Shown: positions 3,520 through 55,076 of the stretch, in pieces | Layout: the number at the start of each line of letters is the position of its first letter | How positions within the stretch are numbered: position 1 is the first letter of the stretch | Assembly (NCBI GenBank): GCA_038062895.1 | Contig: JBBTWJ010000005.1 | Span: 131,715-195,714, forward strand | Direction: 5' to 3' | DNA: 64,000 bases | Origin: Patescibacteria group bacterium | GTDB taxonomy: Bacteria; Patescibacteriota; Microgenomatia; UBA10105; UBA927 | Translations under genes and position numbers: made by a program | Notes under the pieces: generated by a model | Database searches by the model: none | Told to the model about the DNA's origin: nothing | The model's input: the letters and a program-made list of their open reading frames with translations, nothing else

Positions 3520-3724
3520 TCATCGGCACAGCGGATTGTGCTTTCCCATTGGGTGTGGTATGCTTTGGCGATTGACGAAAGCCAGGTAGTGAAACTTCGA
3601 TCTTGCTTTGAAAGCAAGGAAAACATACTTGGTAAAAACAGTATTGATTGATTAATAAAGGAGGATTAGGACAAAAGATTTTTTTGGAAGAAACAAAAAA
3701 ATTATCGAAGTTCTACTACCTGGT

Positions 3725-4411
3725 ATGGCTACACGAAAATCTGCACAGAAAAAAACTTCAGTTAAACGAAATGTAAAAAAGAATGCATTGATGGCAGTTC
3801 CCCCCGCAGACGAAGCCCCACTCTCCGTGCCGGTAAAGCAAAAATTTAATACAAAAATCCTTTATCTCATTGTCGGGCTCCTTGCGCTGTCCGCCCTGCT
3901 TCTTGCTAATAAGAGCATGTTGGTAGCAGCGGTTGTGGATGGGCGGCCGGTGTGGAGCTGGGAACTCAACAGTGTGATGGCTGACCGCTACGGGAAACAA
4001 ACACTCGAGGGCATGATCAGCGAAAAGTTGATTGCCAGCGAAGCGAGAAAGCAGGGCGTGGTTATGAACCCCGAAGAAGTAAAGGCGCGGGAAGAAGAGA
4101 TCGTCAAAGGATTAGGGGGAGGCATGAGCCTCGAGGAAATTCTTAAGATCCAGGGACTCACCAAATCTGAATTTGACCGGCAGATTACGCTCCAGCTTAC
4201 GGTGCAAAAATTGCTTGGGAAGGATCTTGCCATCACGGATGCGGATGTGGATAATTTCATCGCGACCAACCGGGCGACGCTGGTGGCTACCGAAGAGGCG
4301 ACTCTTAAAACAGAAGCCAGACAGGCAATTCTGGATGCCTACATCGGAGAAAAGCTCCAGCCGTGGTTTAATGAGCTGAAAGAGAAAGCCAAGATACTTC
4401 GTTTTCTTTAA
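3725..4411 (+). CDS. SurA-N-terminal-domain-like periplasmic chaperone, membrane anchored (no PPIase domain)
   Basis: N-terminal TM helix then a SurA_N-like helical domain. The start codon is embedded in the conserved GAAGTTCTACTACCTGGTATG motif. Confidence 0.5.
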   Translation: MATRKSAQKKTSVKRNVKKNALMAVPPADEAPLSVPVKQKFNTKILYLIVGLLALSALLLANKSMLVAAVVDGRPVWSWELNSVMADRYGKQTLEGMISEKLIASEARKQGVVMNPEEVKAREEEIVKGLGGGMSLEEILKIQGLTKSEFDRQITLQLTVQKLLGKDLAITDADVDNFIATNRATLVATEEATLKTEARQAILDAYIGEKLQPWFNELKEKAKILRFL

Positions 4412-10461: not shown

Positions 10462-10619
10462 CAGGATTTATGCCAGGTAGTAGAAACTCGATACAAAATT
10501 TTATCCGATTTTAAAATCATGATTATAAATACAATGATTGTCGAGTCCAAAATAGTGCTATAAATCTTGAAAATTTTGTTTCCTCGCTAAGGCGAGGGAT
10601 CGAGTTTTCACTACCTGGT

Positions 10620-12104
10620 ATGCCGGAAGAATTTTTTGAAGTCTTAAGCAATCATGCGACGCCGCCGGTCTACCGTCATTTCAATGGAAAAGAATGGGTG
10701 GAGAGTGCGAGTGGAAAGACCGTCGAGGTTCGTTCTCCCATTGATGACAGCGTGGTGGGCGTCCTCCAAGTGGTGACCACGGGGGAAATTGACGCGGTAA
10801 TGATGGCTGCTAAAACAGGACAGGTGAAATGGGAAGCGACTCCCCTCAATCAGCGGGTGAAGATCATGCATCTCTCTGCCGACTGGATCCGGCATTTTGA
10901 AGAATATCTCACGACACTGCTTGCCCGCGAAATTGGCAAGACGACAGGAGAGGCTAAAAGTGAGATTGTCAGAACAGCTGACCTCATCGATTACTACGCC
11001 GATGAGGCTCAATCGATGCGTGGGGAGACTCTGGATAGCGATAATTTCCCGGGATACGACAAAGGACGGATCGGACTCATCGAGCGCGTGGCGTGGGGAA
11101 CGGTTCTGGCGATCGCTCCATTTAACTACCCCGTCAATTTATCGGCAAGCAAAATTGCCCCAGCACTTCTGATGGGAAACAGCGTTGTTTTTAAGCCACC
11201 GACACAAGGTGGCATCAGTGCTCTCCATCTCGTGCAAGCATTTCTCAAAGCCGGTGTCCCGGAAGGAGTGCTCACCTGCGTGACCGGGACGGGCGCGGAT
11301 ATTGGTGATTATCTCGTTTCTCATACGGGCATCGACTGTATTACTTTTACGGGAAGTTCTGATACCGGAGAGGCGATAGCCAAGCATGCCGGTATGAAGC
11401 CGTTAGTGTTTGAGTGCGGCGGCAATAATCCGGCTTTAGTCCTCCCTGACGCGGATATGAATCTCACGGCCCGCGAGATTATCAAAGGCGCATTTTCCTA
11501 TGCCGGGCAGCGGTGTACGGCGATAAAATACATCCTTGCCATGCCCTCGACGATGGAACAATTATTGCCGGTGTTACGCAAAGAGTTTGGGGAATCAGTG
11601 AAGATGGGTGACCCCCGCAGTCCGGAAACGAAAATGGTGGGGCCGGTCATTTCTGTGGGAGCTGCCGAACACATCCAATCGCTTATCGATGAGACGGTGA
11701 AGGCAGGAGCCAAGATTGTGTCCGGAGGGAAAAGAAATAATGCTTACATTGAACCCACGATTCTTTCCGGTGTCCGGCCGGAGATGCCGGCAGTCGCTCA
11801 GGAAGTGTTCGGGCCGGTGGTCTCACTCATTACCGTCAAGGATGTGAGCGAAGCCACGGGGATCATTAACGCGTCGCGATTTGGACTTCAGGCTTCTGTG
11901 TTCACAAAAGATGAGGGAGCGGGGATAGTCGTTGCTAAACAGTTGAGCGTCGGAACCGTGCAAATTAATGGGAGCCCACAACGCGGTCCCGATCACTTCC
12001 CATTCTTGGGCGTCAAACGATCAGGATTAGGCGTGCAAGGGGTACGGTATTCTCTGGAAGAAATGAGCCGCTTGCGGCCCATTGTCATCAATAAGCCGCA
12101 GTAA
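10620..12104 (+). CDS. gapN: NAD(P)+-dependent aldehyde dehydrogenase, non-phosphorylating GAPDH (GapN)-like
   Basis: ALDH superfamily with catalytic Glu in 'VFECGGNNP' and catalytic Cys in 'YAGQRCTAIKY'. Start codon is embedded in the conserved ...CACTACCTGGTATG motif. Confidence 0.75.
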   Translation: MPEEFFEVLSNHATPPVYRHFNGKEWVESASGKTVEVRSPIDDSVVGVLQVVTTGEIDAVMMAAKTGQVKWEATPLNQRVKIMHLSADWIRHFEEYLTTLLAREIGKTTGEAKSEIVRTADLIDYYADEAQSMRGETLDSDNFPGYDKGRIGLIERVAWGTVLAIAPFNYPVNLSASKIAPALLMGNSVVFKPPTQGGISALHLVQAFLKAGVPEGVLTCVTGTGADIGDYLVSHTGIDCITFTGSSDTGEAIAKHAGMKPLVFECGGNNPALVLPDADMNLTAREIIKGAFSYAGQRCTAIKYILAMPSTMEQLLPVLRKEFGESVKMGDPRSPETKMVGPVISVGAAEHIQSLIDETVKAGAKIVSGGKRNNAYIEPTILSGVRPEMPAVAQEVFGPVVSLITVKDVSEATGIINASRFGLQASVFTKDEGAGIVVAKQLSVGTVQINGSPQRGPDHFPFLGVKRSGLGVQGVRYSLEEMSRLRPIVINKPQ

Positions 12105-12162: not shown

Positions 12163-12194
12163 AGACAAAATAAACCACGTGGTGTATTTTGTCA
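12163..12194. repeat. 32-bp near-palindromic direct repeat, copy 1 (AGACAAAATAAACCACGTGGTGTATTTTGTCA)
   Basis: Exact 32/32 match to 12966..12997. Core CACGTG palindrome with flanking inverted arms AAAATA/TATTTT. Confidence 0.9.
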
Positions 12195-12262: not shown

Positions 12263-12962
12263 CTAGACATCAAAGAAATCGCGGAAGCTTTGGTCGTTTT
12301 CAATCGCAGCTACGCGGAATATTCGGACGTATTTCCCGATCCCTAGATATTCACGAAGAAATATGAGTTCTTTGACGCATGGATATGCGTGAAGGTACAT
12401 ACTCTCGTGTAGGGGATAGAACCGCCAGACGCGAAGATATTCACGGAAATATGTACGAAGGTGATCCAGGGCGCGTGGTATATCATAGCTGACGAGACAC
12501 CACGTTTCGTCCCAGCGTGCGGGTTTTTCTATAGTGATTTCATCAAGCGCATATTTGAGTACGCGCCGTTTTCCGTTTTGTGTGAGCGTGATAACGTCGG
12601 CGTCACCTTCTTTGGAAATTTGTACAAGCTTTGCTTGCTCAAGGCGCGCGAGGGTGCGTTTGAGGTAGCTTAAGTTAAAGCGCTTCCATGTTGGGTCATC
12701 GTCATTATGATGAGTATTCAGAAATGGCTTGAGGACCATGGGGAGAGTGGGGAAGGCAAGCGAGGCAGCGATGAACGCTCCGGCGCCGACGAGTTTGAGC
12801 ACCAGTGCGACTTTTGCATATTTTTCTGTCCGTTCTTGGCGATCTATCTTATGAAGAAGTGATTGGCAAAGCGTTGCGATTTCTGCTTCCGTTTTTTCGG
12901 TAAGCGGCAGGTTTTCAATTTTTTGTTTAGGCTTTCTTGGACGAACTCGAAGCGAATTCATG
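12263..12962 (-). CDS. membrane-anchored protein with a PaaX-C-terminal-like domain (hypothetical)
   Basis: 'WDETWCLVSYDIP...LRxxLxxxxFYPLHESMYL' resembles the PaaX_C domain. One TM helix. Start taken at the internal Met at 12962 because the upstream part of the long ORF overlaps the repeat and looks non-coding. Confidence 0.45.
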
Positions 12963-12965
12963 GTA

Positions 12966-12997
12966 GAGACAAAATAAACCACGTGGTGTATTTTGTC
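12966..12997. repeat. 32-bp near-palindromic direct repeat, copy 2
   Basis: Identical to 12163..12194. Lies immediately upstream of the PaaX-like gene start. Confidence 0.9.
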
Positions 12998-13092
12998 AAG
13001 ATTACTGAGATTACAGAAATGGGGAGATAAGATCCAGCACATTGGCGCCCGGCCATTGATTTTCAGAGAGAGTGAGAGTACTCTAGGTGTTG

Positions 13093-13755
13093 ATGGTTGG
13101 ACTTGACCAAAAAGCGGAAATTTCTCCAATACTTCCCGAGCCCACGGAATCGGTTCTTGGTGGAGTAGGGGACGGGAGACCTCGCGTGTCTTTCGGAATA
13201 ATATTAGGTCAGAGAGCAGCAGAGGACCCTACGCCCGTACAGCAAAAAATTTTCGATATTTCCCATCCCAAAGTACGCTACCGTTTAGCGCAGAGCGTGC
13301 ACTATTGGGATCATGCAACGGGTGGCCAAAAAGTTGCTCCGGGGTTTGAAACGATTACCTATGCAAATGATAGAGGTGTTATTGTTATAGATCCATTCTC
13401 TGAACGGACAAGCGATATCATGCAGCCCGAAGAGTTTGCGAGACAAACGGCGAACAGCGATGGCGTTTTTTCTTTGGATTTGGCAACCGCGCGGCATACA
13501 TTTAGAGTAAGGAATCCTTCTATTTTTCCTTTCGTTAAGGAGGCATTTAATGCGGTAGAAGAACTTCTTTTTCATGGACAGAGTATAGCAGCGTTGGAAA
13601 CATATGATGGAGATCTAAGCCGATCAGAGTTAGAGACCCTTAAGTCGCGAAGAATGAAGCTTTTATTCAAGAGAGATTGGGATTTTGACCCAAAGAGTAA
13701 GCAGCCAAAGCAAAAATGGGATTGGAAACCTCAATATCCACAGATTAAATTTTAA
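13093..13755 (+). CDS. hypothetical protein
   Basis: Long ORF with no recognised motif. The first ATG is at 13093, and the ORF tool used a GTG at 13087. Confidence 0.3.
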   Translation: MVGLDQKAEISPILPEPTESVLGGVGDGRPRVSFGIILGQRAAEDPTPVQQKIFDISHPKVRYRLAQSVHYWDHATGGQKVAPGFETITYANDRGVIVIDPFSERTSDIMQPEEFARQTANSDGVFSLDLATARHTFRVRNPSIFPFVKEAFNAVEELLFHGQSIAALETYDGDLSRSELETLKSRRMKLLFKRDWDFDPKSKQPKQKWDWKPQYPQIKF

Positions 13756-18458: not shown

Positions 18459-18728
18459 ATGTTCTTTTACGTTTATGTATTGAAAAGCGTGGAGAATGAT
18501 CATCTGTATATTGGATCAACAAGTGACCTGGCTCGTCGGGTAAAAGAACATAATCTTGGACTCAGTCCATCAACGAAGCCATATAAACCGTGGAAGCTTA
18601 TATACTATGAAGCATGTCTCAACGAACAAGACGCAAAACGCAGAGAAAAATATATTAAAACCAGTCAAGGAGGGAGACTTCTCAAGCGCAGATTGAAGGA
18701 ATATTTCTTTTCTCTGCGTTTTGCCTGA
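18459..18728 (+). CDS. GIY-YIG nuclease-domain small protein (UPF0213/YhbQ-like), paralog 1
   Basis: 'FYVYVLKS...LYIGSTSDLARRVKEHN' GIY-YIG motif. Start at the internal Met of the ORF-track entry. Confidence 0.7.
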   Translation: MFFYVYVLKSVENDHLYIGSTSDLARRVKEHNLGLSPSTKPYKPWKLIYYEACLNEQDAKRREKYIKTSQGGRLLKRRLKEYFFSLRFA

Positions 18729-18744
18729 AGTTCTACTACCCGGT

Positions 18745-19362
18745 ATGGAGCCAGGGAAGAACGGAAAGAAGCCGCTCAAGTATTCTTCTATCGCCATGTC
18801 CGGGCGTCCCGGGGCAGGAAGATCCACACTTCTGAAAAATCTCCGTCCCTATTTAGAACCCCTCAAATGGGAATTTTTTTCCGGAGGAGACTGGTCACGG
18901 CAGTTTGCCATCAAAGCCGGTACCCATGATGCAGATGATGCAAAACATCATTTGGCAACGGCGTATGGAGATGACGTGGATCTCCAAATAGATGTGGCAA
19001 TGCGGGAGAAAATTGCGAACCCGTCGGTTCACATGGCTATTGAGAGCTGGATCGCCGGGTGGAACGCGCGGGGGATCAAGCACGTGCTGAAGGTGCTGTT
19101 GATGTGTGACAGTTCACTGCGCATTGATCGCATCGTCAACCGCGACAATATCACCGTCCAGGACGCCAAAGCGCATATCCGAATGCGGGAAGACTCCAAT
19201 CTAACTAAATGGAAACGGATGTATAAGACAAAAGATTTCTGGGATCCCAAGCACTATGATCTCATCATCAACACCTACTCCCATGGGCCTCTGGAAACTC
19301 TTGAGCTTGTTCTTCAGGCGTTGGGCTACTTCAGCGCCAACGGCCAAAAGCCAAACGCGTGA
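18745..19362 (+). CDS. P-loop NTPase, cytidylate kinase-like
   Basis: Walker A variant 'GRPGAGRST'. The ATG sits in the conserved GAAGTTCTACTACCCGGTATG motif, and the ORF-track start at 18721 is a TTG. Confidence 0.45.
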   Translation: MEPGKNGKKPLKYSSIAMSGRPGAGRSTLLKNLRPYLEPLKWEFFSGGDWSRQFAIKAGTHDADDAKHHLATAYGDDVDLQIDVAMREKIANPSVHMAIESWIAGWNARGIKHVLKVLLMCDSSLRIDRIVNRDNITVQDAKAHIRMREDSNLTKWKRMYKTKDFWDPKHYDLIINTYSHGPLETLELVLQALGYFSANGQKPNA

Positions 19363-20449: not shown

Positions 20450-21049
20450 ATGAACATATCATTGGTCACCGTATTATTTGCTTTATTTTTTAGTTTTGCT
20501 TCGCTATCACCTTCCTTCGCTATAACGACACCCACAAAAACGACAGTATCAAACCCTGTGGTCGAAGCCATAAAAGTACCTGCGGAAAAAACCGATGGAG
20601 GTATGGAAAAAAAGCAGGAATACCTGCTCCCATTCCCGGGAATTCTTCCGGATCATCCGCTCTATTTCCTCAAACAAGTGCGCGATGGAATCATGGATCG
20701 GCTCATCGTAGACCCTTTGCGTAAGGCAGAGTTTCATGTGCTTCAGGCGGACAAGAGACTCAACATGGGCAAGGTATTGGTAGAGCAGAAAAAAGAGAAG
20801 CTCGCCGAAGAAGTGATCTCTAAAGGGGAAAAATATTTGGAGCGCGCGGTGAGCGGGCTTATGGCTTACAAATCTTTAGGCCGGCCGGTGCCGGCAAGTA
20901 TCATCGATAAACTAACGCGCTCTCTGGAAAAGCACGTGGAGGTGTTGACGGACCTCGTCGCCAAAACTTCCGGTACTGTCCAGTCGGGATTGACCGGGTC
21001 GCTGGACTTCGTCAAGAAATTACAAGGGGAAGTGGAGAAACTGAAATAA
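20450..21049 (+). CDS. secreted hypothetical protein (signal peptide plus helical domain)
   Basis: N-terminal signal peptide 'LVTVLFALFFSFASLSPSFA'. RBS GGAGGA 7 nt upstream. Confidence 0.5.
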   Translation: MNISLVTVLFALFFSFASLSPSFAITTPTKTTVSNPVVEAIKVPAEKTDGGMEKKQEYLLPFPGILPDHPLYFLKQVRDGIMDRLIVDPLRKAEFHVLQADKRLNMGKVLVEQKKEKLAEEVISKGEKYLERAVSGLMAYKSLGRPVPASIIDKLTRSLEKHVEVLTDLVAKTSGTVQSGLTGSLDFVKKLQGEVEKLK

Positions 21050-21286
21050 AAGTACGGGAGGTACGAAAAGTACGAGATGTACGGGAGGAACAGGGAAAGA
21101 GACAAGCGGATTATTATCCACAATATATGAATAGTTCTGAATCATTGAACACAATTAATACATATATCGCTGGTCACTCGTTTTTTGTCTCCTGTCGCTT
21201 GCATTAAACCCCGTACTTTTTCCTCAATTCTTGGCGGCCGAGGCTAGCAAAAATGATTGACTGTATTTGATCTAGAAATGACTAGT

Positions 21287-21465: not shown

Positions 21466-21912
21466 ATGAAGTGTCCATACTGCAATCACGAAGAAACAGA
21501 GGTTTTGGAGACGCGCGACAGCGAGGATTTAGCCGTGACACGCCGCCGCCGAACGTGTACCAAGTGCGAGAAACGGTTTACGACGTACGAACGGCTTGAA
21601 TCCGTGCCCATTACGGTCATCAAGAAAGACGAACGGCGAGAAACATTTGACCGGGAGAAGCTCAAGCGCGGGATTGTGCATTCAAGCGGAAAGACAACGG
21701 TAAAAGCTGAAGACATTGATCGAATCGTTGATGAGGTGGAGCGCGAGCTTATCGGCGGGGAAAGCGTGGAGGTCACCAGCAAAAAGATAGGGGAGCTCGT
21801 CGCTAAGAGATTGAAAAAATTAGATAAGGTGGCGTATATACGCTTTGCAAGCGTGTTTCGAAGCTTTGTGGATGTGGAGGATTTTGAGCGGGAAGTGAAA
21901 AAATTGCTCTGA
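21466..21912 (+). CDS. nrdR: transcriptional repressor NrdR
   Basis: N-terminal zinc ribbon 'CPYCNHEETEVLETR...RRRTCTKCEKRF' and an ATP-cone domain. The ORF-track start is a TTG, and the ATG is at 21466. Confidence 0.9.
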   Translation: MKCPYCNHEETEVLETRDSEDLAVTRRRRTCTKCEKRFTTYERLESVPITVIKKDERRETFDREKLKRGIVHSSGKTTVKAEDIDRIVDEVERELIGGESVEVTSKKIGELVAKRLKKLDKVAYIRFASVFRSFVDVEDFEREVKKLL

Positions 21913-21951
21913 GCAATTTTTTCATCCTGAGCGAAGTCGAAGGATCTCATT

Positions 21952-24471
21952 ATGGATCTCACCGGCATCAGACAAAAAGTATTCTTAGACCGTTACGCGC
22001 TCAAGGACGAAGCGGGTAACCCTACCGAAAAAACGCCGGAGGAGATGTGGCGCCGGGTCGCCCATGCCATAGCCCAAGTGGAACCTAAAAAACAGCGTGA
22101 GCAGTGGGAGAACAAATTTTATCAGGCGATGGATAATTTCGTCCTGGTGCCCGGGGGACGGATCCTTTCGGGTGCCGGAACGGGGTATAAAGTCACCTAT
22201 TATAATTGTTTCGTAATCCCGAGCCCCCATGACTCGCGGCAGGGAATCCTCAACACTCTTTCACAAATGGTAGAAATCATGTCCCGCGGCGGCGGGGTTG
22301 GGATCAATCTCTCGAGTTTGCGTCCCAGAGGTGCGCGCGTACAGAAGGTCAACGGATTCTCGTCCGGCCCCTGCAACTGGGCGGAACTTTTCAGTGTCGC
22401 GACCCGCGACATCATTCAACAAGGGGGAAGCCGGAGGGGCGCTCTCATGCTCATGCTCTGGGATTGGCATCCGGATGTCGAGGAGTTTATCACCGTGAAA
22501 CAGGACCTCGCGCGCATTAATGGCGCAAACCTCTCTGTGTGTGTCTCGGACGCGTTCATGGAAGCGGTGAAAAAGGACGCGGATTGGGATCTCGTATTTC
22601 CCGACAAAAGTGATCCCGAGTATGACGAGAAATGGGATGGCTATCTTCCTAACTGGCTAAAGCTTGGCAAGAAAGTCATCGTTCAAAAAACAATAAAAGC
22701 CCGTGCATTATGGGACCTCGTTGCACAAGCCGCATGGAAGTCTGCAGAGCCCGGGGTTGTTTTTATGGAGCGTAATAATAAATGGTTTAATAATTATTAT
22801 TGGGAATATGTCAATTGTGTTAATCCCTGCGGTGAAGAACCGCTGCCGAATTATGGGGTCTGCAATCTCACATCCATTAATTTGTCTGCATTAGTCAATG
22901 AACAAGGCGATATGGATTATATGCGGCTCTCCGAGGTGGCCAAGACAGGCGTACGATTCCAGGATGATGTGATTGATGCTGATGTATACATATTCCCTGA
23001 GATAAAAAAACGACAAGTTGAAGGCGAACGTCGGATTGGCTTGGGGACTATGGGGCTAGGGGACGCGCTCATCAAAATGAAGCTCCGATACGGATCAAAA
23101 GAAAGTCTCGCGGTGATTGATAAGATTTATCAAACCATCCGGGACGCTGCCTACGAATCCTCTGTGGAAGTGGCGGCCGAAAAAGGCGCGTTTCCGGCAA
23201 TCGATATAAAGAAGCATCTGGAGGGATATTTCGTCAAACAACTTCCCGAAGAAATCAAAAAGAAAATAAAAAAGCATGGCGTGCGAAACTCGGTCATCCT
23301 GCAACAGGCGCCGACAGGGAGTACATCCCTCATGGTGGGAGTGAGCTCCGGCATAGAGCCGGTGTATGAGTTTGAGTTTCTGCGCCACGACCGTTTAGGT
23401 GAACACATCATCCGCCACCCATTATATGATGCGTGGGTTTCTCAATTTATCGCAACGAATAGACGAGAACCGAATAAAGCAGACCGGCCGGATTATTTTG
23501 TGTCCGCAAACGACTTGACCCCCGAGGACCACGTCTATGTCCAGGCTGCAATACAGAAACATGTCGACGCTTCGATCAGCAAGACAGTCAACGCCCCGAA
23601 GACCCATACGGTTGAGGACGTGAAGCGGCTGTATACACTCGCTTATGAATTAGGGTGCAAGGGAATCGCGTACATGCGGGAGGGGAGCAGGCAGGGAGTG
23701 CTCGAGCGGATAGAGGAAGCGAAACCCACGGTTGAGGGAAAACCAGATGAGGTGAAAGTAGCCGGTCAGTATGTGCCGGAGGTCAAGCCCCGGCCGATGG
23801 TCGTCCACGGATCGACCTACCAAGTGGAGACGCCGGTCGGACAAGCGTATGTGACCATCAATACCAATGGAGGCCGCCAGCCGCTTGAGCTTTTTATGAA
23901 CATCGGGAAGGCAGGGAGCGATGTCACCGCGATGGCGGAAGCTATGGGTCGGCTGATTTCTCTCATTTTCCGAATTGCCTCACCGGTTTCCCCAATCGAA
24001 CGCGCACACAAAGTAGCGGCAGAGCTTATCGGTATCGGGGGAGCGCGTTCTCTCGGGTTTGGGGAAAACCGGGTGCGGAGTTTGCCGGATGCCGTCGCGA
24101 AAGTCATTGACCGGCATTTTGGATTTTTTACCAAGCATAAGTTGACCGATGTCCCGCAACCTGCAGCAGGAGGCGACGTGATGGCGTCACACGAAACAAA
24201 CGGAAATGGTTCGACTCCGTTCACCACAGGTGGTGCTGCCATGACGACAACTTTAATGAATGGAGCCACCAATGGAAATGGTCATATGACGGAATTAAAA
24301 ACGGACAACAATGATGATAAAGAGCAGACAGTGGACGCGGCATCCTACCAGCGGGCGGTAGCCCAAGAGCGGGTGGTGACGGTCGATCTTTGCCCGAGCT
24401 GTGGCGAGGGGAGTCTGGTATTTGAGGAAAGTTGTAAGAAATGCTACTCGTGCGGATATTCGGAATGCTAA
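21952..24471 (+). CDS. nrdJ: adenosylcobalamin-dependent ribonucleotide reductase (class II, NrdJ)
   Basis: Class II RNR catalytic barrel with Cys-containing 'NPCGEEPL' and a C-terminal zinc-ribbon tail 'CPSCGEGSLVFEESCKKCYSCGYSEC'. Lies 39 bp after nrdR. Confidence 0.9.
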   Translation: MDLTGIRQKVFLDRYALKDEAGNPTEKTPEEMWRRVAHAIAQVEPKKQREQWENKFYQAMDNFVLVPGGRILSGAGTGYKVTYYNCFVIPSPHDSRQGILNTLSQMVEIMSRGGGVGINLSSLRPRGARVQKVNGFSSGPCNWAELFSVATRDIIQQGGSRRGALMLMLWDWHPDVEEFITVKQDLARINGANLSVCVSDAFMEAVKKDADWDLVFPDKSDPEYDEKWDGYLPNWLKLGKKVIVQKTIKARALWDLVAQAAWKSAEPGVVFMERNNKWFNNYYWEYVNCVNPCGEEPLPNYGVCNLTSINLSALVNEQGDMDYMRLSEVAKTGVRFQDDVIDADVYIFPEIKKRQVEGERRIGLGTMGLGDALIKMKLRYGSKESLAVIDKIYQTIRDAAYESSVEVAAEKGAFPAIDIKKHLEGYFVKQLPEEIKKKIKKHGVRNSVILQQAPTGSTSLMVGVSSGIEPVYEFEFLRHDRLGEHIIRHPLYDAWVSQFIATNRREPNKADRPDYFVSANDLTPEDHVYVQAAIQKHVDASISKTVNAPKTHTVEDVKRLYTLAYELGCKGIAYMREGSRQGVLERIEEAKPTVEGKPDEVKVAGQYVPEVKPRPMVVHGSTYQVETPVGQAYVTINTNGGRQPLELFMNIGKAGSDVTAMAEAMGRLISLIFRIASPVSPIERAHKVAAELIGIGGARSLGFGENRVRSLPDAVAKVIDRHFGFFTKHKLTDVPQPAAGGDVMASHETNGNGSTPFTTGGAAMTTTLMNGATNGNGHMTELKTDNNDDKEQTVDAASYQRAVAQERVVTVDLCPSCGEGSLVFEESCKKCYSCGYSEC

Positions 24472-24608: not shown

Positions 24609-25193
24609 ATGGCAATTTATACCCGTACCGGCGATACCGGATCAACGTCCCTCTTTGGCGGTAAGCGCGTCCTCAAGTGCGAGGAGCTTGTGGAGGTCTA
24701 TGGGTCGCTTGATGAGTTAAATTCGTGGATTGGGCATGTCGCATCACTCTTTCCTTCTCCGGATGTCAAACAATTTCTTCAGACCATACAATCCGATGTC
24801 TTTACGATCGGCAGCACGCTTGCAGGGTGGAAGAATGGAGATTTGACTGCACTGGAAAGCCGGGTAAAGGAAATGGAAGCGCGGATCGATGCCATGGAGG
24901 AGAGTTTACCTCCAATCCGGAATTTCATCCTGCCGGGTGGCGCGGAGTTGGCCGCTCACACACATATTACGCGCAGTATTTGCCGGAGAGTGGAGAGGCA
25001 ACTTGTTTCATTGAAGGTACGAGAAGTACAGGAAGTACAGGAAGTACAGGAGGTACGGGAGGGAGATGTTGACGTGATGATTAAGTACCTCAACCGGCTT
25101 TCGGACTTGTTTTTTATGCTCGCGCGGTTTATAAACAAGCAGGAGAATGTGGAAGAAGTGATTTGGAATGGAAACCATTCCAAATCATCCTGA
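24609..25193 (+). CDS. pduO: ATP:cob(I)alamin adenosyltransferase, PduO type
   Basis: 'MAIYTRTGDTGSTSLFGG' N-terminal signature of PduO-type adenosyltransferases. Contains an in-frame 9-bp tandem repeat encoding VREVQEVQEVQEVRE. Confidence 0.8.
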   Translation: MAIYTRTGDTGSTSLFGGKRVLKCEELVEVYGSLDELNSWIGHVASLFPSPDVKQFLQTIQSDVFTIGSTLAGWKNGDLTALESRVKEMEARIDAMEESLPPIRNFILPGGAELAAHTHITRSICRRVERQLVSLKVREVQEVQEVQEVREGDVDVMIKYLNRLSDLFFMLARFINKQENVEEVIWNGNHSKSS

Positions 25194-25227
25194 GCGAGTA
25201 AAGCGAGTCGAAGGATCTTAAAAATAC

Positions 25228-25363
25228 AGATATCAGGGGAATCGTGGTGTGAATCCACGGCTGTGCCGCAACTGTAAAGCCAGAAAACCTGAATCGTAGA
25301 CCGTCTCTCGAGCAAGGGGAATTTTTTTGGTGTAGCCCTCTTGATTATGAGAGGGCTTTTATT
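25228..25363 (+). ncRNA. cobalamin (B12) riboswitch-like leader with an intrinsic terminator expression platform
   Basis: AGGGGAA...GGUGUGAAUCC...GCUG...CCGCAACUGUAA (B12-box variant GCAACUG)...AAGCCAGAAAACCUG matches the cobalamin riboswitch core. Terminator GCCCUCU-loop-AGAGGGC followed by UUUUAUU directly abuts the GNAT ATG. Confidence 0.5.
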
Positions 25364-25838: not shown

Positions 25839-27734
25839 ATGGCAGAATTTGCCCTTGGTGGAGACAACGGCGGACACAGTTGGAATAATGCCATCGCCCA
25901 CGCGACGTACGAGGAGAACGTGGAAAAGTTTGGCGCAGATACAGCAAGGAATTATTTACGGAAGGACATCCGTAGCTTCATACAGGAACAAAAAGGACAG
26001 GAAAGCCAATGGTCGCTTACTGTGCAGGGCGGCCGGATGGTAACGGAGACGGGGGTAAGCCTGGACGAAATGACCGCGAATATTACCCAGGGGCGATATA
26101 GCAATCTCGTGCCGGAGAACATAAAAGCTACCGCACCTCTAGAGGCAGCGACACTCCGGGAAGCGACAAGGCTTGCAGTTGATGGTGCGGAAAAAATTAT
26201 TTTGCCGGAACAGCATTTGGACGCGGACGGCAATATCGTTTCCCGCTATCTTTCTGTTTGGACGAAGAATGCTTCTGACTCCACACGGTATGACGGATCA
26301 AGAATTGATTTGGGAAAAAATATACGGATCGAAGACGTGCGAACCGGCACGTCTTTTACTGCATTTGAACAACATGAAAGTATCTCTTTTCATCAACATA
26401 AAGATGAAAAACGAGCGTTCGTACTGGCGATTCATTCCAATTCAGAAGACTCGTTTCGAGTGGTGAAAGATTCCTTAGTGACAAAGGTGCACAGATCTCA
26501 TCAGGAAACCTATTCGATTCCCGTCGTGCGGGAAGGACGACAGAAACAAACAGATATCAAAGAGAACCGTCATGCTGATATGTTGACGGAGGTCCCCCGT
26601 GCTGTTTTTCGTGATGTTCGTGAAACGGCAGGGAGCGTATCGATCTTTTTACGGAATAAAAAGGAACAGATTAACTATGATAACGAGAGAAAGAGCGAAC
26701 GATTAACCCTCAAAAAAATCCGTGAGAAGCCAGTGCGGCTTGGTCACGTTATCGAAAAGCGACACATCGAAATGCGCCGCGCCGTAGTATCAATCGCCGT
26801 GATCGCCGAGACCGGAGTCGCCCTCCACGCGGTGCCGGTGTTGCTTGCGAGACTCTCTGAAACGTCGCCTGCGCCGATCCGGGCGGTCGAGAAGAGTATA
26901 CGAAGACACGAGAAAAAAGTACCCCACTTCGCTAAAGCTTCGCGGGGCAGGCGGGAGGTGCAAAAAACACGAGCGGTAAGAAGGAGTTTTGAAAAGGTTC
27001 AACCCTTGAAACCCTTGATGTCAGAAAGGATTGAACCTTTCAGAAGCGTTAAAGAACGTAGGAAGAGGGTGAAGCGCGGAGGGGAGAAGTGGATCAAAAC
27101 AGTTGCGGCCGCAGAGATATTGGCACCGATCGCCACAGAAAAGCGGGAGAGGCGAGTGTGGAAACGACTGCGACGGATCATGAGGAGAGCGGAGCGAGTT
27201 CTCGAGAGTAAGCGAATGCCAAAACGAGAGAAGAAGCTGTGGCGAGCGTTGGCCGTGACTGCCGCGAAATTAGCTTCGCAAGGCCAGGCCTTGCGAAGCT
27301 GGGAAGTAAAAAAGCGAAACGATATCACCCACAAGAGTCGAGACGTTCTGACATCGAAGCCAGCCCTCGAGGCCGGGAGTTTAGCAGGGCGCAAAGAACA
27401 GGCGGCAATGGCGGGAGTCCGTTTTGCGTTCGTGGTATGGGCGTTGCTGAACCGTGCTAATTTCCCTCCGGTCGAGAGTAAATTAGCAATATTTACTTCA
27501 AAAGAAGGAAGAAGAAGAATACGTGCCAAGCTAGTTCACCCGAAGGGTGAGAAGAAGGGTGAGGAAAAAGAGTTGACGCCGTGGGTATTGCTATCCATCA
27601 TTTGGTATATGACCGCGATACGCGAGCAGGGGAGAGGATCAAATCCGACCAATCCGGCCAATATACCAATCCGACCAATTAAAAAGGTTCTAACATTTCC
27701 GCAATATGCAGTCATTTTTGCGTATGCTTCGTGA
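25839..27734 (+). CDS. large hypothetical protein: acidic N-terminal half, extremely Arg/Lys-rich C-terminal half
   Basis: ATG 1 nt after the GNAT stop. No antisense competitor of note. Contains the 29-bp palindrome in-frame (KLASQGQALRS). Possible nucleic-acid-binding protein. Confidence 0.4.
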   Translation: MAEFALGGDNGGHSWNNAIAHATYEENVEKFGADTARNYLRKDIRSFIQEQKGQESQWSLTVQGGRMVTETGVSLDEMTANITQGRYSNLVPENIKATAPLEAATLREATRLAVDGAEKIILPEQHLDADGNIVSRYLSVWTKNASDSTRYDGSRIDLGKNIRIEDVRTGTSFTAFEQHESISFHQHKDEKRAFVLAIHSNSEDSFRVVKDSLVTKVHRSHQETYSIPVVREGRQKQTDIKENRHADMLTEVPRAVFRDVRETAGSVSIFLRNKKEQINYDNERKSERLTLKKIREKPVRLGHVIEKRHIEMRRAVVSIAVIAETGVALHAVPVLLARLSETSPAPIRAVEKSIRRHEKKVPHFAKASRGRREVQKTRAVRRSFEKVQPLKPLMSERIEPFRSVKERRKRVKRGGEKWIKTVAAAEILAPIATEKRERRVWKRLRRIMRRAERVLESKRMPKREKKLWRALAVTAAKLASQGQALRSWEVKKRNDITHKSRDVLTSKPALEAGSLAGRKEQAAMAGVRFAFVVWALLNRANFPPVESKLAIFTSKEGRRRIRAKLVHPKGEKKGEEKELTPWVLLSIIWYMTAIREQGRGSNPTNPANIPIRPIKKVLTFPQYAVIFAYAS

Positions 27735-27746
27735 TATGATAAATAT

Positions 27747-28172
27747 ATGGATGGCCTACCAACCCCGCCGATGGCGGGGAATAACCCAATAAATACCAAT
27801 AATCCAATAATCCAATCAGGAAATATTTCTGTTGGGAAGGAGTTGGAGTCAGGTGTGGTGGTGAAAGAAGAGCCGGGGCTCAAGGATGTATCGGGACAGG
27901 AAATAGAGCTACCCCGCGAAGTGGCGGCAGCCGGAGTGTCTAACCAACCGACGACGGTGCAACTCCCGCAGCCGGTCTCACAAATGGGGGTAAAAGTAGT
28001 CGGGGATGCAGTGGTGCCGGCAGCGCCGCCGGTGGCGCTTCCTTTGACTGATGATCAGATTGCATTGGGACTCAAACAAAGTGTAACCACCTCTTGGCGG
28101 TGGCTCGCAGAATTCTGCGTACGGAAATTGAAACAACTACACAAAACATTAGTCAAAAGTCCAAAAGTCTAA
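27747..28172 (+). CDS. hypothetical protein (Pro/Val-rich)
   Basis: 141-codon ORF between the basic protein and the ATPase. The N-terminus is encoded by the CCAATAATCCAAT repeat. Confidence 0.3.
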   Translation: MDGLPTPPMAGNNPINTNNPIIQSGNISVGKELESGVVVKEEPGLKDVSGQEIELPREVAAAGVSNQPTTVQLPQPVSQMGVKVVGDAVVPAAPPVALPLTDDQIALGLKQSVTTSWRWLAEFCVRKLKQLHKTLVKSPKV

Positions 28173-30591: not shown

Positions 30592-30889
30592 AAAAGTACG
30601 GGAAGTATGAAAGGTACGGGAAGTACGGGAGGGTAGAGCAGAAAATCCTATAGGCTTGACTTCTTCTTCTTCTTCTTCTTCTAAACTCCATTGATACGTA
30701 GGCCAATAAAGAGCGTCACAAAGCGATGTTTATTTTGTTGGTTTGCTATTTTTGTTGCTCATTGACAGGTTGCGGAAAACATTCAGTTGTCTTCTATTCA
30801 ATACAATGGATAGCATCTTTAGCATGATTATTCGTGCTTGAAATGCTATCCATAGGTATGGATAAATATAAAATAAAAGGAGAAAGAAA

Positions 30890-33471: not shown

Positions 33472-33480
33472 CCTGTTGGC

Positions 33481-33523
33481 AATTATCCAATTATCCAATT
33501 TCAAATAATCCAATAATCCAATG
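33481..33523. repeat. (TTATCCAA)n / (TAATCCAA)n 8-bp tandem repeat
   Basis: aattatccaattatccaatttcaaataatccaataatccaat. Same family as 27781, 54487, 63915 and the related 63283. Confidence 0.8.
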
Positions 33524-53620: not shown

Positions 53621-53739
53621 CAAGCGAGCGGGCAATAAAAAAGCCGGTCTTATCGACATCACTCTCCGCTTTTACGGCGAGGGGTCGCTTCGAATCCGAC
53701 TATGAAAATAGTATACCATGATAGTAGTAATAGTCAATT

Positions 53740-53898
53740 ATGAAAATCGCATTGGTACATGATTTTTTACGGGAGTACGGGGGAGCGGAAAGGGTTGTGG
53801 AAACCTTGCCTCGACACAACGCTTACTTACTCGCAAGGGCTACGTCCTTGCCTCGCAAGAGCGCGTGTACGGGGCTGCGGTTTCATAACGTTATATGA
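53740..53898 (+). pseudogene. upstream ORF that duplicates the first 23 codons of the downstream glycosyltransferase, then diverges; its stop overlaps the GT start (ATGA)
   Basis: MKIALVHDFLREYGGAERVVETL is identical in both copies, but 13/23 codons differ synonymously. Lies 86 bp upstream of the GT gene. Confidence 0.45.
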
Positions 53899-55076
53899 AG
53901 ATAGCTTTAGTTCATGACTTTCTTAGAGAATACGGTGGTGCTGAAAGGGTTGTCGAAACCTTGCATGAAATGTGGCCGGAGGCGCCGCTTTATACGTCGT
54001 TTGTGGATTGGGGAAATTTGGGGGATCAGGGGTATAGGTTCAAAAATTGGGATATACGGACGAGCTGGGTGCAGCAGTTTTGGTTCATCAAAAAATTTAT
54101 TTCGCCCCTCCGGTTTCTCGCTCCTTGGATCTGGGGGAGCTTTGATCTCTCCGGGTATGACGTGGTCATTTCAAGTTCGGGTTGGTTTATTTGTCGTGGC
54201 GTTCGAATGGGAGATCCTTCGACTCGCTCCGCTCGCTCAGGACGTGCTCTGCACGTTTGCTACATCCATCATCCTCCGAGGAATCTGTATGGGTATGCGA
54301 CGGGCAGTGATCTGCAGAAGTACTGGATCGTGCGCGTGTATGCGGCAATCGTGAACTTCTTTCTCCGGCACTACGACTATGAAACGGCGCAGAAGGTGGA
54401 CTACTTCATTGCTAATTCTCAGGAGACGAAACGGAGGGTGTTGAAATTCTATAGACGTGATGCTGCCGTTATCTATCCTCCAATTGAATTATCCAATTAT
54501 CCAATTATCCAATTATCCAATAATCCAATAAAAATTCATAAGAAATACTATTTATCTGTTGGGCGGCTCACGTACAGTAAGCGGGTGGATATCGCAATTG
54601 CGGCGTGCAAAAAACTTGGATTGCCGCTCATGATCGTCGGAACGGGCAAAGAAGAGGAATCGTTGAAAAAACTAGCTTCGCAAGGCCTGGCCTTGCGAAG
54701 CTGTGGTATTGAGTTTTTGGGGAGTGTAAACGACGAGGAACTGTCTCGGCTCTACGCGGGGGCCAAGGCGCTTATCTTTTGTGCGCTGGATGAGGACTTC
54801 GGGATGGTACCGGTAGAGGCCATGGCCCATGGGACGCCCGTCATCGCTCTGGCTCAAGGTGGAGTGGTGGAGACGGTGGTGGACGGGAAAACTGGCATTC
54901 TTTTTCACGAGGTGACAGTGGAGAGCTTGATAAAAGCGTTGGGGAGATTTAGGGGATTAGGGGGATTTGGGGAAATGGGGGAAAATTGTATAAAACAAGC
55001 CGAGAAGTTTGGCAAAGAGCGGTTTAAGAAGGAATTGTTGGCGTTTATAAATACCCAGAGGTTTAAAGCTAATTAA
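53895..55076 (+). CDS. glycosyltransferase family 4 (GT-B fold)
   Basis: C-terminal 'EDFGMVPVEAMAHGTPVIA' EX7E-type motif. N-terminal GT4 domain. In-frame insertions encoded by the 8-bp repeat and by the 29-bp palindrome. Confidence 0.8.
   Translation: MKIALVHDFLREYGGAERVVETLHEMWPEAPLYTSFVDWGNLGDQGYRFKNWDIRTSWVQQFWFIKKFISPLRFLAPWIWGSFDLSGYDVVISSSGWFICRGVRMGDPSTRSARSGRALHVCYIHHPPRNLYGYATGSDLQKYWIVRVYAAIVNFFLRHYDYETAQKVDYFIANSQETKRRVLKFYRRDAAVIYPPIELSNYPIIQLSNNPIKIHKKYYLSVGRLTYSKRVDIAIAACKKLGLPLMIVGTGKEEESLKKLASQGLALRSCGIEFLGSVNDEELSRLYAGAKALIFCALDEDFGMVPVEAMAHGTPVIALAQGGVVETVVDGKTGILFHEVTVESLIKALGRFRGLGGFGEMGENCIKQAEKFGKERFKKELLAFINTQRFKAN

What the first reader, a model, noticed from the sequence alone, without database searches (positions are those of the whole stretch)
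27272..27300. Identical 29-bp perfect palindrome embedded in-frame in two unrelated genes
AGCTTCGCAAGGCC-W-GGCCTTGCGAAGCT occurs at 27272-27300 in the basic 632-aa protein and at 54674-54702 in the GT4 glycosyltransferase. In both genes it is translated as KLASQG(Q/L)ALRS. A perfect 14-bp-arm hairpin appearing twice in coding DNA is not expected by chance. It may be a miniature inverted-repeat element or a recombination or protein-recognition site that tolerates translation.
Basis: seen in the sequence. Interest (0 to 1): 0.55.

Follow-up and report, generated by a model that had tools for sequence, protein, structure and literature searches.

The report
Mobile REP hairpin inside two genes
The 29-base palindrome is a copy of a small hairpin repeat (a REP element) that a dedicated tyrosine transposase spreads through the genomes of these tiny groundwater bacteria. 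It survives inside genes because two of its three reading frames have no stop codon, so this is a new example of a known kind of selfish DNA.

Summary
The same 29-nt palindrome sits at 27272-27300 and 54674-54702, where 0 copies are expected by chance. Both copies are read in frame as LASQG(Q/L)ALRS.

It is a REP-type dispersed hairpin of Candidatus Gottesmanbacteria (Patescibacteria):
- An exact-match scan of one genome per species found 79 more copies in 19 assemblies, 1-13 per MAG. The consensus is yTAG-CTTCGCAAGGCC-W-GGCCTTGCGAAG-CTAr.
- In at least 9 loci the palindrome lies on both sides of, or beside and inside, a ~235-aa Y1/HUH transposase gene (Pfam Y1_Tnp). The best fold match of that protein is E. 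coli TnpA-REP, 4ER8.
- Diverged transposase paralogues carry correspondingly diverged palindromes.
- Two such transposases, with the same 12-13-nt stems beside them, very probably belong to the window's own genome. The window itself holds none.

About 40% of copies lie inside real genes (LepA, transketolase, RmlD, glycosyltransferases). They use almost only the two stop-free frames. The LASQ frame, used by both window copies, always has the 3' foot changed (here CTA to CTG), which removes a stop codon.

REPs inside genes and REP-associated transposases are already described. New here are the host phylum, the perfect stem, the yTAG foot, the high intragenic share, and a copy of each transposase's own REP inside its own gene. 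Mobilisation is inferred, not shown.

The parts
27271..27301 (.). REP copy 1: 5' foot TAG, 13-nt arms 27272-27284 and 27288-27300, loop CAG 27285-27287, 3' foot CTG. It is read in frame as L478-S487 (LASQGQALRS) of the host protein.
   Evidence: It matches the family consensus from 79 copies elsewhere.
54673..54703 (.). REP copy 2: 5' foot TAG, arms 54674-54686 and 54690-54702, loop CTG 54687-54689, 3' foot CTG. It is read in frame as L260-S269 (LASQGLALRS) of GT4.
   Evidence: In the AF2 model it forms a helix-to-strand loop, with pLDDT below 50 at residues 265-268.
25839..27734 (+). Host gene 1: a 631-aa basic protein of unknown function. It is conserved in CPR bacteria, and the REP sits in its hypervariable basic middle part.
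   Evidence: 68 cluster representatives with E<=1e-3, 21 with E<=1e-30. P0248 (40% identity) has KKLASQGQALRSWE at the same site, P0243 has a decayed copy (KKLASQGRTLQ), and the closest homologue P0241 (63%) has none. No Pfam or NCBIfam hit.
53895..55076 (+). Host gene 2: a GT4 glycosyltransferase. The REP sits between the GxGxEE helix and the VEFLG strand of the C-terminal Rossmann domain.
   Evidence: Most aligned orthologues lack the insert. The window, P0002, P0003, P0008, P0009 and P0032 have it. P0021 keeps only the left arm after a 15-nt internal deletion.

Best explanation
The two palindromes are copies of a REP-type element, a short dispersed hairpin repeat. It belongs to a REP/RAYT system of Candidatus Gottesmanbacteria and related Microgenomates.

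Shown:
- The same 31-33-nt unit, yTAG + 13-bp stem + 3-nt loop + CTAr, is scattered through related genomes.
- The unit brackets the gene of a Y1/HUH tyrosine transposase. Diverged paralogues of that gene are bracketed by correspondingly diverged hairpins.
- Two such transposases with the same stems beside them very probably belong to the window's own genome.

Inferred by analogy with E. coli TnpA-REP and IS200/IS605 TnpA:
- On single-stranded DNA the hairpin and its 5' TAG foot are bound by the transposase.
- The AG of the foot pairs with the CT of the opposite foot to define the cleavage site.
- Cleavage and strand transfer copy or move the unit to new sites without help from host recombination.

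Why copies sit inside genes: these ~1-Mb genomes are about 87% coding, so many insertions land in genes. Selection keeps only those in permissive surface loops and in a frame without a stop. The frame giving SFARPGLAKL is open in the consensus unit. The frame giving LASQGxALRS is open only if the 3' foot CTA-R is changed. The third frame starts with TAG. Both window copies use the LASQ frame and both have CTA changed to CTG. The encoded 10 residues are most likely passengers in flexible loops with no function of their own.
For: Dispersal:
- One search found 79 exact copies in 19 assemblies, 1-13 per MAG. The viral contig collection had none.
- One search gives the consensus: TAG in 68/79 copies and CTA in 68/79, with an A-rich left flank and a T-rich right flank.
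- Within the fetched loci, most copies are perfect or differ only in the feet; the few stem variants keep their pairing. These loci were chosen by an exact match, so the sample is biased.

Cognate enzyme:
- In L054, L062 and L032 three copies lie upstream of, inside and downstream of a 235-238-aa ORF.
- That ORF matches Pfam Y1_Tnp at 29-37 bits, above the cut-off of 23. Its only NCBIfam hit is REP_Tyr_transpos.
- The HxH motif and the RYIH tyrosine are invariant.
- The AF2 model has pLDDT 81.6. Its best PDB fold match is 4ER8, TnpA-REP bound to a REP hairpin (E 3.5e-5), ahead of the ISDra2, IS200 and IS608 transposases.
- JGI names one homologue 'REP element-mobilizing transposase RayT'.

Co-variation: six transposase lineages are flanked by the window-type palindrome or a related or different one:
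- ...GGCCWGGCC...
- ...GGC-ATT/AAT/CTC-GCC...
- ...GGTACTACC...
- CAGCTTCAAAAGGAAsTTCCTTTTGAAGCTG
- CTCAAGGGCGGGCCTTGAG
- AwTTCAAAGCTwAGCTTTGAAwT

Same genome:
- The window's GT4 is NCBI protein MEK7543759.1. Two of these transposases are MEK7543927.1 and MEK7544051.1.
- One transposase lies in the same assembly (ERZ1292633) at the same coverage (7x) as the window contig.
- Their REPs share 12-13 nt of each arm with the window copies.

Intragenic copies:
- 31-32 of 81 copies are internal to ORFs.
- The hosts are real genes: RmlD, LepA, transketolase, PMT_2/TMEM260 glycosyltransferases and YfhO.
- In LepA the unit adds a net 9 residues relative to Thermus EF4.
- The frames used are 20 SFARPGLAK, 10 ASQGxALR and 1 LRKAxPCEA. 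The single third-frame copy has TAG changed to CAG. No ASQ-frame copy keeps CTA-R.
- The REP-encoded peptides have pLDDT below 50 in both AF2 models.

Precedent: intragenic REPs, and REP feet that supply stop codons, are documented in PMC3733652.
Against: - No transposase gene lies in the 64-kb window. Assigning the two RAYT genes to the same genome rests on neighbouring accession numbers, a shared sample and equal coverage, not on a closed genome.
- No filled-versus-empty pair between near-identical strains was found. The inserted unit (27, 31 or 33 nt), the target site and any TA duplication are therefore undefined, and transposition is not demonstrated.
- In both host genes the insert is shared with distant orthologues and absent from closer ones. 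That pattern needs either repeated insertion at permissive sites or an old insertion with repeated loss.
- The foot is yTAG, with G at the first position in only 4 of 79 copies, and the stem is perfect. E. coli TnpA-REP needs GTAG and a bulged stem (PMC3479197).
- The NCBIfam REP_Tyr_transpos score (36-55 bits) is below its cut-off of 80.
- The copy number per genome is low compared with classical REPs.
Confidence: 0.82

Rival explanations
1. The solo hairpins are end remnants of an autonomous IS200/IS605-type insertion sequence. On this reading the transposase gene with its flanking hairpins is the mobile unit and the dispersed palindromes are footprints, not independently mobilised REPs.
For: The enzyme is a Y1_Tnp protein and its fold also matches IS200, IS608 and ISDra2 TnpA. 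The gene is bracketed by hairpins, as an insertion sequence would be. Its genomic neighbours differ between genomes.
Against: No genome showed identical extra copies of the transposase unit. Paralogues within one MAG are only 34-69% identical to the query, and each has its own hairpin type. Both ends carry the same palindrome, whereas IS200/IS605 ends differ. Solo hairpins outnumber transposase genes about 10 to 1. The protein is ~235 aa with a C-terminal extension, and its best fold match is TnpA-REP.
Confidence: 0.07
2. The palindrome is a host-selected DNA or RNA signal kept by selection at each site independently of any transposase. Candidates are a bidirectional terminator or mRNA-stabilising hairpin, a DNA-uptake sequence, or a binding site for a chromosome-organising protein.
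For: Intergenic DNA is only about 13% of the sequence but holds 44% of copies. Several copies overlap gene 3' ends and supply the stop codon. The flanks are A-rich on the left and T-rich on the right. Identical sequence is kept across species. CPR bacteria are thought to depend on DNA uptake (my own knowledge, not tested here).
Against: About 40% of copies sit in the middle of genes such as LepA and transketolase, where a terminator would be harmful. The density of 2 copies per 64 kb is far below that of uptake sequences. The tight bracketing of transposase genes and the co-variation with transposase lineage are not expected for a host signal. A secondary host use of some copies is not excluded.
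Confidence: 0.06
3. It is a miniature inverted-repeat element (MITE) of a DDE transposon of the IS630/Tc1-mariner type that inserts at TA and duplicates it. The 27-nt core would then be flanked by TA...TA.
For: TA is present at both feet in most copies (T-A at positions -3/-2 and +26/+27). This is compatible with a TA duplication within a YTAR target.
Against: A TA duplication cannot be told apart from the palindrome simply extending outward (yTAG...CTAr). At 27-33 nt the unit is far below MITE size and has no separate terminal repeats. No DDE transposase was noticed in the ORFs listed next to the three clusters examined, whereas a Y1 transposase is adjacent to copies in at least 9 loci.
Confidence: 0.03
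4. The shared peptide KLASQGxALRS is a selected protein motif, and the DNA palindrome is a by-product.
For: Both window copies use the same frame and the same flanking lysines. The same peptide recurs in orthologues.
Against: Elsewhere the same DNA is read twice as often in another frame, as SFARPGLAKL. It also occurs in 36 intergenic positions. Both AF2 models give the encoded segment low confidence.
Confidence: 0.01

Closest known systems
E. coli and Pseudomonas REP/BIME or REPIN elements with their REP-associated tyrosine transposase (RAYT, TnpA-REP; REPtron; PDB 4ER8)
   Same: Both are short GC-rich hairpin repeats with a conserved foot ending in TAG. Both are dispersed in the genome. In both, the gene of a Y1/HUH transposase is bracketed by its own repeat type, and diverged paralogues carry diverged repeats. 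The fold of the CPR enzyme is closest to 4ER8 (PMC3479197, PMC6006769).
   Different: The stem here is a perfect 13 bp without a bulge. The foot is yTAG rather than GTAG. Each MAG holds 1-13 perfect copies rather than hundreds. No REPIN or BIME doublets were seen. About 40% of copies are inside genes. The transposase is ~235 aa and carries a REP copy in its own coding sequence. The host is Patescibacteria. The NCBIfam equivalog score is below its cut-off.
Intragenic GTAG/CGTC REPs reported by Di Nocera et al. 2013 (PMC3733652) in Opitutus terrae, Thauera, Xanthomonas and other species
   Same: REPs lie wholly within ORFs of known proteins and are translated in frame. REP feet supply the stop codon of upstream genes. 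The elements are associated with RAYT genes.
   Different: In those species intragenic units are a minority of large, mostly intergenic families, and many of them are dimers encoding 20-30 aa. Here single units encode about 10 aa and make up about 40% of the family. The sequence family and the phylum are also different.
Rickettsia palindromic elements (RPE)
   Same: Palindromic selfish DNA inserted in frame into functional protein-coding genes of a small-genome bacterium and tolerated in surface loops (cited in PMC3733652).
   Different: Per PMC3733652, RPE-1 are longer palindromic insertions, and the REP-like intragenic repeats of R. conorii (RPE-4/RPE-6) belong to the CGTC class, which apparently lacks a dedicated transposase. 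The element here is 31-33 nt and has a cognate Y1 transposase.
IS200/IS605 insertion sequences (IS608, ISDra2) and their subterminal hairpins
   Same: They use the same enzyme superfamily, recognise a hairpin plus a 5' guide foot on single-stranded DNA, and are not expected to duplicate the target (PMC3479197).
   Different: Those are autonomous units with different left and right ends and multiple identical copies. Here the hairpin alone is the dispersed unit.

Membership tests
REP/RAYT (REPtron) systems, broad sense | A short (about 20-40 nt) hairpin-forming palindromic repeat | tested here: met
   The unit is 31-33 nt with a 13-bp stem and a 3-nt loop. It folds at -16.4 kcal/mol as single-stranded DNA, z about -7.5.
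REP/RAYT (REPtron) systems, broad sense | Many dispersed copies within a genome | tested here: met
   Related MAGs hold 1-13 exact copies each, 79 in 19 assemblies. The window holds 2 in 64 kb. The number is low compared with classical families, and the MAGs are incomplete.
REP/RAYT (REPtron) systems, broad sense | A Y1/HUH tyrosine transposase gene flanked by the same repeat | tested here: met
   Copies lie on both sides of the gene in L054, L006, L062, L015, L032, L033, L053 (two genes), L071 and L073, and beside and inside it in L025. The window itself holds no such gene.
REP/RAYT (REPtron) systems, broad sense | The transposase has the HUH motif, a catalytic tyrosine and the Y1 fold | tested here: met
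   Pfam PF01797 scores above its cut-off. NHFH and RYIH are invariant. Foldseek's top hit is 4ER8_A, E 3.5e-5. NCBIfam NF047646 is the only hit but scores below its cut-off.
REP/RAYT (REPtron) systems, broad sense | Each transposase type is associated with its own repeat type | tested here: met
   Six transposase lineages carry the window-type palindrome or a related or different one.
REP/RAYT (REPtron) systems, broad sense | The transposase is single-copy per type and is not multiplied as an insertion sequence | tested here: inconclusive
   Paralogues within one MAG are diverged and no identical duplicates were seen. However, the MAGs are fragmentary and only the loci around palindromes were sampled.
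REP/RAYT (REPtron) systems, broad sense | The transposase binds, cleaves and transfers the repeat | not testable with these tools
   This needs biochemistry or comparison of strains. It is known only for E. coli TnpA-REP (PMC3479197).
GTAG-tagged REP superfamily (Di Nocera 2013) | A conserved GTAG (GT[AG]G) tetranucleotide at one end | tested here: not met
   TAG is conserved in 68/79 copies, but the first position is T (45) or C (26) and G in only 4. I therefore do not file it in the GTAG superfamily in the strict sense. Atypical feet are known for other RAYT classes (PMC6006769).
GTAG-tagged REP superfamily (Di Nocera 2013) | Predominantly extragenic location | tested here: not met
   Of 81 copies, 36 are intergenic, 31-32 are internal to ORFs and the rest lie at gene ends. 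Intragenic units are a known minority in that superfamily.
MITE (DDE-transposon derived) | A 70-300-bp unit with terminal inverted repeats and a target-site duplication | tested here: not met
   The unit is 31-33 nt and is a single hairpin. A TA duplication cannot be distinguished from the palindrome extending outward.
Rickettsia palindromic elements | A longer palindromic unit inserted in frame | tested here: not met
   In-frame insertion is met. Size is not: the unit is 31-33 nt, whereas PMC3733652 describes RPE-1 as longer palindromic insertions.
DNA uptake sequences (DUS/USS) | Very high genomic density, around one per kb, of a short motif | tested here: not met
   There are 2 copies in 64 kb and at most 13 per MAG. 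The expected density is from my own knowledge.

The most novel reading that the evidence does not exclude
In this Patescibacteria clade each RAYT gene carries a copy of its own cognate REP hairpin in frame in its own coding sequence, directly after the catalytic-tyrosine motif YIHRNP. That internal copy co-varies with the REPs flanking the gene in five lineages. In one lineage it differs from the flanking copies by only two substitutions, TTTTGA to TTACGA, which remove a stop codon. The most novel reading not excluded is that this is functional: the transposase recognises a hairpin in its own gene or mRNA, giving feedback control or self-homogenisation. On that reading these REP populations have adapted to live largely inside genes in gene-dense CPR genomes. 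I found no report of either feature in the literature I could search.
Probability: 0.3. Interest if true: 0.6.

Novelty: new member of a known kind. Interest (0 to 1): 0.42.

Why it matters
REP/RAYT systems have been studied almost only in Proteobacteria, where the repeats are by definition extragenic. Here the same kind of system operates in ultra-small, gene-dense CPR genomes, and about 40% of copies are translated as roughly 10-residue loops in essential proteins such as LepA, transketolase and sugar-nucleotide enzymes.

This gives one concrete source for part of the unexplained short insertions that make CPR proteins longer and more variable than their homologues.

It also has practical uses:
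- The peptides SFARPGLAKL and LASQGxALRS, and the DNA motif, are markers that annotators can mask.
- They may help binning of Gottesmanbacteria contigs.
- The perfect short hairpin and its small transposase form a simple pair for biochemical study of how a Y1 enzyme recognises its repeat.

Tried and rejected
- **Chance or assembly artefact.** Rejected: shuffles gave 0 copies, and the same GT4 protein, which contains the palindrome-encoded peptide, is encoded on 7 contigs from independent assemblies (DNA checked in two).
- **Known RNA family.** The Rfam scan of the window gave only 3 tRNAs and an AdoCbl riboswitch, nothing at the palindromes.
- **Clean target site from GT4 orthologues.** Not obtainable. 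Filled and empty orthologues are only about 75% identical in DNA and differ by 7-10 codons around the site.
- **DNA-level conservation of the palindrome beyond the rest of GT4.** Not demonstrable. Identical runs of 20-30 nt occur elsewhere in the gene, so I make no such claim.
- **Orientation from the centre base relative to the transposase gene.** No consistent pattern. The centre base lies in the loop.
- **Sequence search of PDB with the transposase.** A single sequence gave nothing. A profile gave only weak ISDra2 hits. The fold search was needed.
- **Transposase in the window.** tblastn found none.
- **Phage origin.** The viral contig collection had no match.
- **Second in-frame repeat in GT4 (54212-54242).** It is not in the other loci and was not pursued.
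- **Metagenome-contig scan.** Not used, because the other collections were sufficient.
Full report
**Observation.**
The 29-mer AGCTTCGCAAGGCC-W-GGCCTTGCGAAGCT occurs exactly twice in the window, at 27272-27300 (centre A) and 54674-54702 (centre T). No further match exists within three mismatches, and dinucleotide shuffles gave none. The shared sequence extends to 35 nt (D17).

Both copies lie inside long ORFs and are read in the same frame as KLASQG(Q/L)ALRS. Copy 1 is in a 631-aa basic protein (25839-27734). Copy 2 is in a GT4 glycosyltransferase (53895-55076). As single-stranded DNA each folds into a 13-bp stem with a 3-nt loop, -16.4 kcal/mol, z about -7.5. The 'W' is therefore the middle loop base. 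Perfect palindromes of this size are rare in the window: 9 observed against 0.35 expected.

**Source organism.**
The window comes from a Patescibacteria (CPR) bacterium of the Gottesmanbacteria type. Its GT4 protein is 100% identical to a MAG protein, and the named hits are Gottesmanbacteria or Patescibacteria group. The contig is Hain_H41_02um_R1_25_length_224654 from Hainich groundwater.

**A dispersed family.**
I scanned one genome per species (GTDB representatives) for CTTCGCAAGGCCNGGCCTTGCGAAG. The scan gave 63 loci with 79 copies in 19 assemblies. Most are labelled Gottesmanbacteria or Patescibacteria. [quoted passage not shown] Each MAG holds 1-13 copies. The viral contig collection had none.

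Aligned on the centre base, the conserved unit is yTAG-CTTCGCAAGGCC-W-GGCCTTGCGAAG-CTAr, with A-rich left and T-rich right flanks. In the half megabase fetched, most copies are perfect or differ only in the feet. The few stem variants keep their pairing through changes on both arms. This sample is biased, because the loci were chosen by an exact match.

**The cognate enzyme.**
Some loci hold three copies within less than 1 kb. In L054, L062 and L032 these copies lie just upstream of, inside and just downstream of a 235-238-aa ORF. Evidence on that ORF:
- It matches Pfam Y1_Tnp (IS200-like transposase) above the gathering score.
- Its only NCBIfam hit is REP_Tyr_transpos, below the cut-off.
- The HUH histidines (NHFH) and the RYIH tyrosine are invariant.
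- JGI names one close homologue 'REP element-mobilizing transposase RayT'.
- An AlphaFold model (pLDDT 81.6) has as its best PDB match 4ER8, E. coli TnpA-REP bound to a REP hairpin (E 3.5e-5). The ISDra2, IS200 and IS608 transposases follow.

tblastn finds such genes in 12 of the loci and none in the window.

Each gene is bracketed by palindromes, and diverged paralogues are bracketed by diverged palindromes. Examples:
- CAGCTTCAAAAGGAAsTTCCTTTTGAAGCTG around one L053 gene.
- TAGCTTCACAAGGACAGGCCTTGTGAAGCTA around the other L053 gene.
- AwTTCAAAGCTwAGCTTTGAAwT around the L063 gene.
- CTCAAGGGCGGGCCTTGAG inside and downstream of the L052 gene.

This arrangement is the defining layout of a REPtron: a REP-associated tyrosine transposase with its own REP type (PMC6006769).

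**Is the enzyme in the window's genome?**
The window holds no such gene, but three lines of evidence place two of them in the same genome.
- The window's GT4 is NCBI protein MEK7543759.1. Two of these transposases are MEK7543927.1 and MEK7544051.1, within 300 accession numbers in the same 'Patescibacteria group bacterium' naming.
- One transposase lies in the same assembly (ERZ1292633) at the same 7x coverage as the window contig. The other lies in sister H41 samples.
- Their flanking and internal hairpins are AGCTTCGCAAGGC-(ATT/AAT/CTC)-GCCTTGCGAAGCT and AGCTTCGCAAGGTA-C-TACCTTGCGAAGCT. These have the same 12-13-nt outer stems as the window copies and differ only at the apex.

This is strong circumstantial evidence, not proof.

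**Why the copies are in frame.**
With a crude gene caller, 87% of the fetched DNA is coding. Of 81 copies, 36 are intergenic, 31-32 are well inside ORFs, and the rest overlap gene ends, where the foot often supplies the stop codon.

The host ORFs are real genes: two RmlD-type reductases, LepA/EF4, transketolase, PMT_2/TMEM260-type glycosyltransferases and YfhO. Against Thermus EF4, the LepA copy appears as a net 9-residue insertion in domain II.

The unit has three reading frames, and because it is a palindrome they are the same on both strands:
- One frame begins with the stop codon TAG.
- One frame is open and gives SFARPGLAKL.
- One frame gives LASQGxALRS followed by TA-R, which is a stop unless the foot is changed.

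Among 31 securely internal copies the counts are 1, 20 and 10 respectively. The single first-frame copy has CAG in place of TAG. None of the LASQ-frame copies keeps CTA-R: they have CTG, CTA-Y or CAA. Both window copies use the LASQ frame and both have CTG.

The pattern fits insertion in any frame followed by selection, or repair by point mutation. It does not fit a selected peptide. In AlphaFold models the encoded residues are low-confidence loops, both in GT4 (265-268, between helix 254-262 and strand 272-276) and in the transposase (161-177).

**The two host genes.**
Most aligned GT4 orthologues read ...EE-YLRSIAGPTVEFLG. The window, P0002, P0003, P0008, P0009 and P0032 carry KKLASQGQALRS at that point. 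P0021 keeps only the left arm, with a 15-nt internal deletion. P0002 has two substitutions.

Host gene 1 is a real but uncharacterised CPR protein family, with 68 cluster representatives. A 40%-identical homologue has KKLASQGQALRSWE at the same site and another has a decayed copy. The closest homologue, at 63% identity, has none.

So in both genes the insert is patchy among orthologues. Either the same permissive loop was hit more than once, or an old insert was lost repeatedly. I could not decide between these. Filled and empty orthologues are too diverged (about 75% DNA identity, 7-10 codons of difference) to define the inserted unit or the target.

**Mechanism.**
Shown:
- A hairpin family.
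- Its physical association and co-variation with a Y1/HUH transposase.
- Survival of the hairpin inside genes only in stop-free frames.

Inferred from E. coli TnpA-REP and the IS200/IS605 enzymes (PMC3479197):
- The enzyme binds the hairpin and its 5' foot on single-stranded DNA.
- The A and G of the foot pair with a CT dinucleotide to set the cleavage site. Here a CT sits in the opposite foot (CTA) of every unit.
- Cleavage and strand transfer copy the unit elsewhere.

Differences from the E. coli paradigm are the perfect stem (E. coli needs a bulge), yTAG instead of GTAG (G in 4 of 79 copies), low copy number, and no doublets.

**Comparison with what is known.**
REP/RAYT systems are well described (PMC2817692, PMC3116915, PMC3333891). 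REPs inside genes, and REP feet that provide stop codons, were reported by Di Nocera et al. 2013 (PMC3733652). In-frame palindromic insertions are classical in Rickettsia.

My literature searches found no paper that joins RAYT or REPIN with Patescibacteria. The finding is therefore a new member of a known kind, with three unusual traits: the CPR host, the high intragenic share, and the item described next.

**The transposase gene carries its own REP.**
In this clade the RAYT gene itself carries a copy of its own REP in frame, right after YIHRNP. The family consensus reads ...ASQGxALRSYxYSSY. At least 44 of the 120 best homologues have that peptide type.

In five lineages the internal copy matches the flanking type. 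In L053 it differs from the flanking copies only by TTTTGA to TTACGA, which removes a stop. I found no report of this. It may be hitch-hiking or a feedback device.

**Verdict.**
The element is a REP-type hairpin of a RAYT system, with confidence about 0.8. Interest is moderate.

Noticed in passing
L054:5649-6365, L062:4353-5060, L032:300-1007, L071:3582-4295, L073:3001-3696, L053:5899-6612, L052:859-1470: Each RAYT gene of this clade contains an in-frame copy of its own REP directly after the catalytic YIHRNP motif. The internal copy matches the flanking REP variant in five lineages. In L053 it differs only by TTTTGA to TTACGA, which removes a stop codon.
   Followed up: partly
window 54212-54242 and 25188-25218: A second repeat lies in frame in the GT4 gene and encodes DPSTRSARSGRA. 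An inverted copy matching 28 of 31 nt lies between the stop of the cobalamin adenosyltransferase gene and the AdoCbl riboswitch. The same peptide occurs in orthologues P0007 and P0011. The repeat is absent from the other fetched loci.
   Followed up: partly
window 54486-54533, 27791-27824, 33474-33522, 63912-63935: Tandem arrays of the 8-mer AATTATCC occur at four places. One lies inside the GT4 coding sequence (ELSNYPIIQLSNNPIK) and falls in a low-confidence loop of the AF2 model.
   Followed up: no
window 53739-53809: A 71-nt copy, 79% identical, of the 5' end of the GT4 gene (53894-53964) lies just upstream of the gene. It looks like a partial duplication and is called as a 52-aa ORF in the public annotation.
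   Followed up: no
window 21039-21097, 25004-25062, 30592-30641: Arrays of 9-nt repeats (GGAAGTACG-like) occur at three sites, two of them directly downstream of ORF ends (D1).
   Followed up: no
window 12163-12194 and 12967-12998: Two identical 32-nt imperfect palindromes, AGACAAAATAAACCACGTGGTGTATTTTGTCA, lie 804 bp apart, one downstream of and one within a PaaX-like regulator ORF (12263-13129, minus strand). They may be operator sites.
   Followed up: no
window 3707-3728, 10602-10623, 18727-18748 (inverted at 3582-3602, 10470-10493, 10598-10618); also L071:2120-2137: A conserved motif, GAAGTTCTACTACCTGGTATG, overlaps the start codons of at least two genes, and its inverse occurs nearby. It is also present on the probable sister contig L071.
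   Followed up: no
window 21896-21924 and 25159-25187: Two different perfect AT-rich palindromes share identical feet, gaagTGA...TCAtcct. One lies in front of the class II ribonucleotide reductase gene and the other at the end of the cobalamin adenosyltransferase gene.
   Followed up: no
window 25220-25298: An AdoCbl-II riboswitch (44 bits) lies between the cobalamin adenosyltransferase gene and a GNAT acetyltransferase gene, which is followed by host gene 1. It is downstream of the ribonucleotide reductase gene 21952-24471.
   Followed up: no
L057:2425-4464 (LepA): Besides the REP, this LepA carries two copies of another ~20-residue insert (HQRVSASTSDHDAMTHGRNDA-like) that Thermus EF4 lacks. 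Several repeat families therefore colonise CPR genes.
   Followed up: no
L001, L005, L006, L008, L009 and other CAY*/CAZ* records: Several 'binchicken' MAG records are titled 'uncultured Gammaproteobacteria bacterium' although at least one appears to be Gottesmanbacteria: NCBI names a transposase on a 47162-nt contig, the length of CAYVAR010000007.1, as Candidatus Gottesmanbacteria. The record titles are probably wrong.
   Followed up: partly
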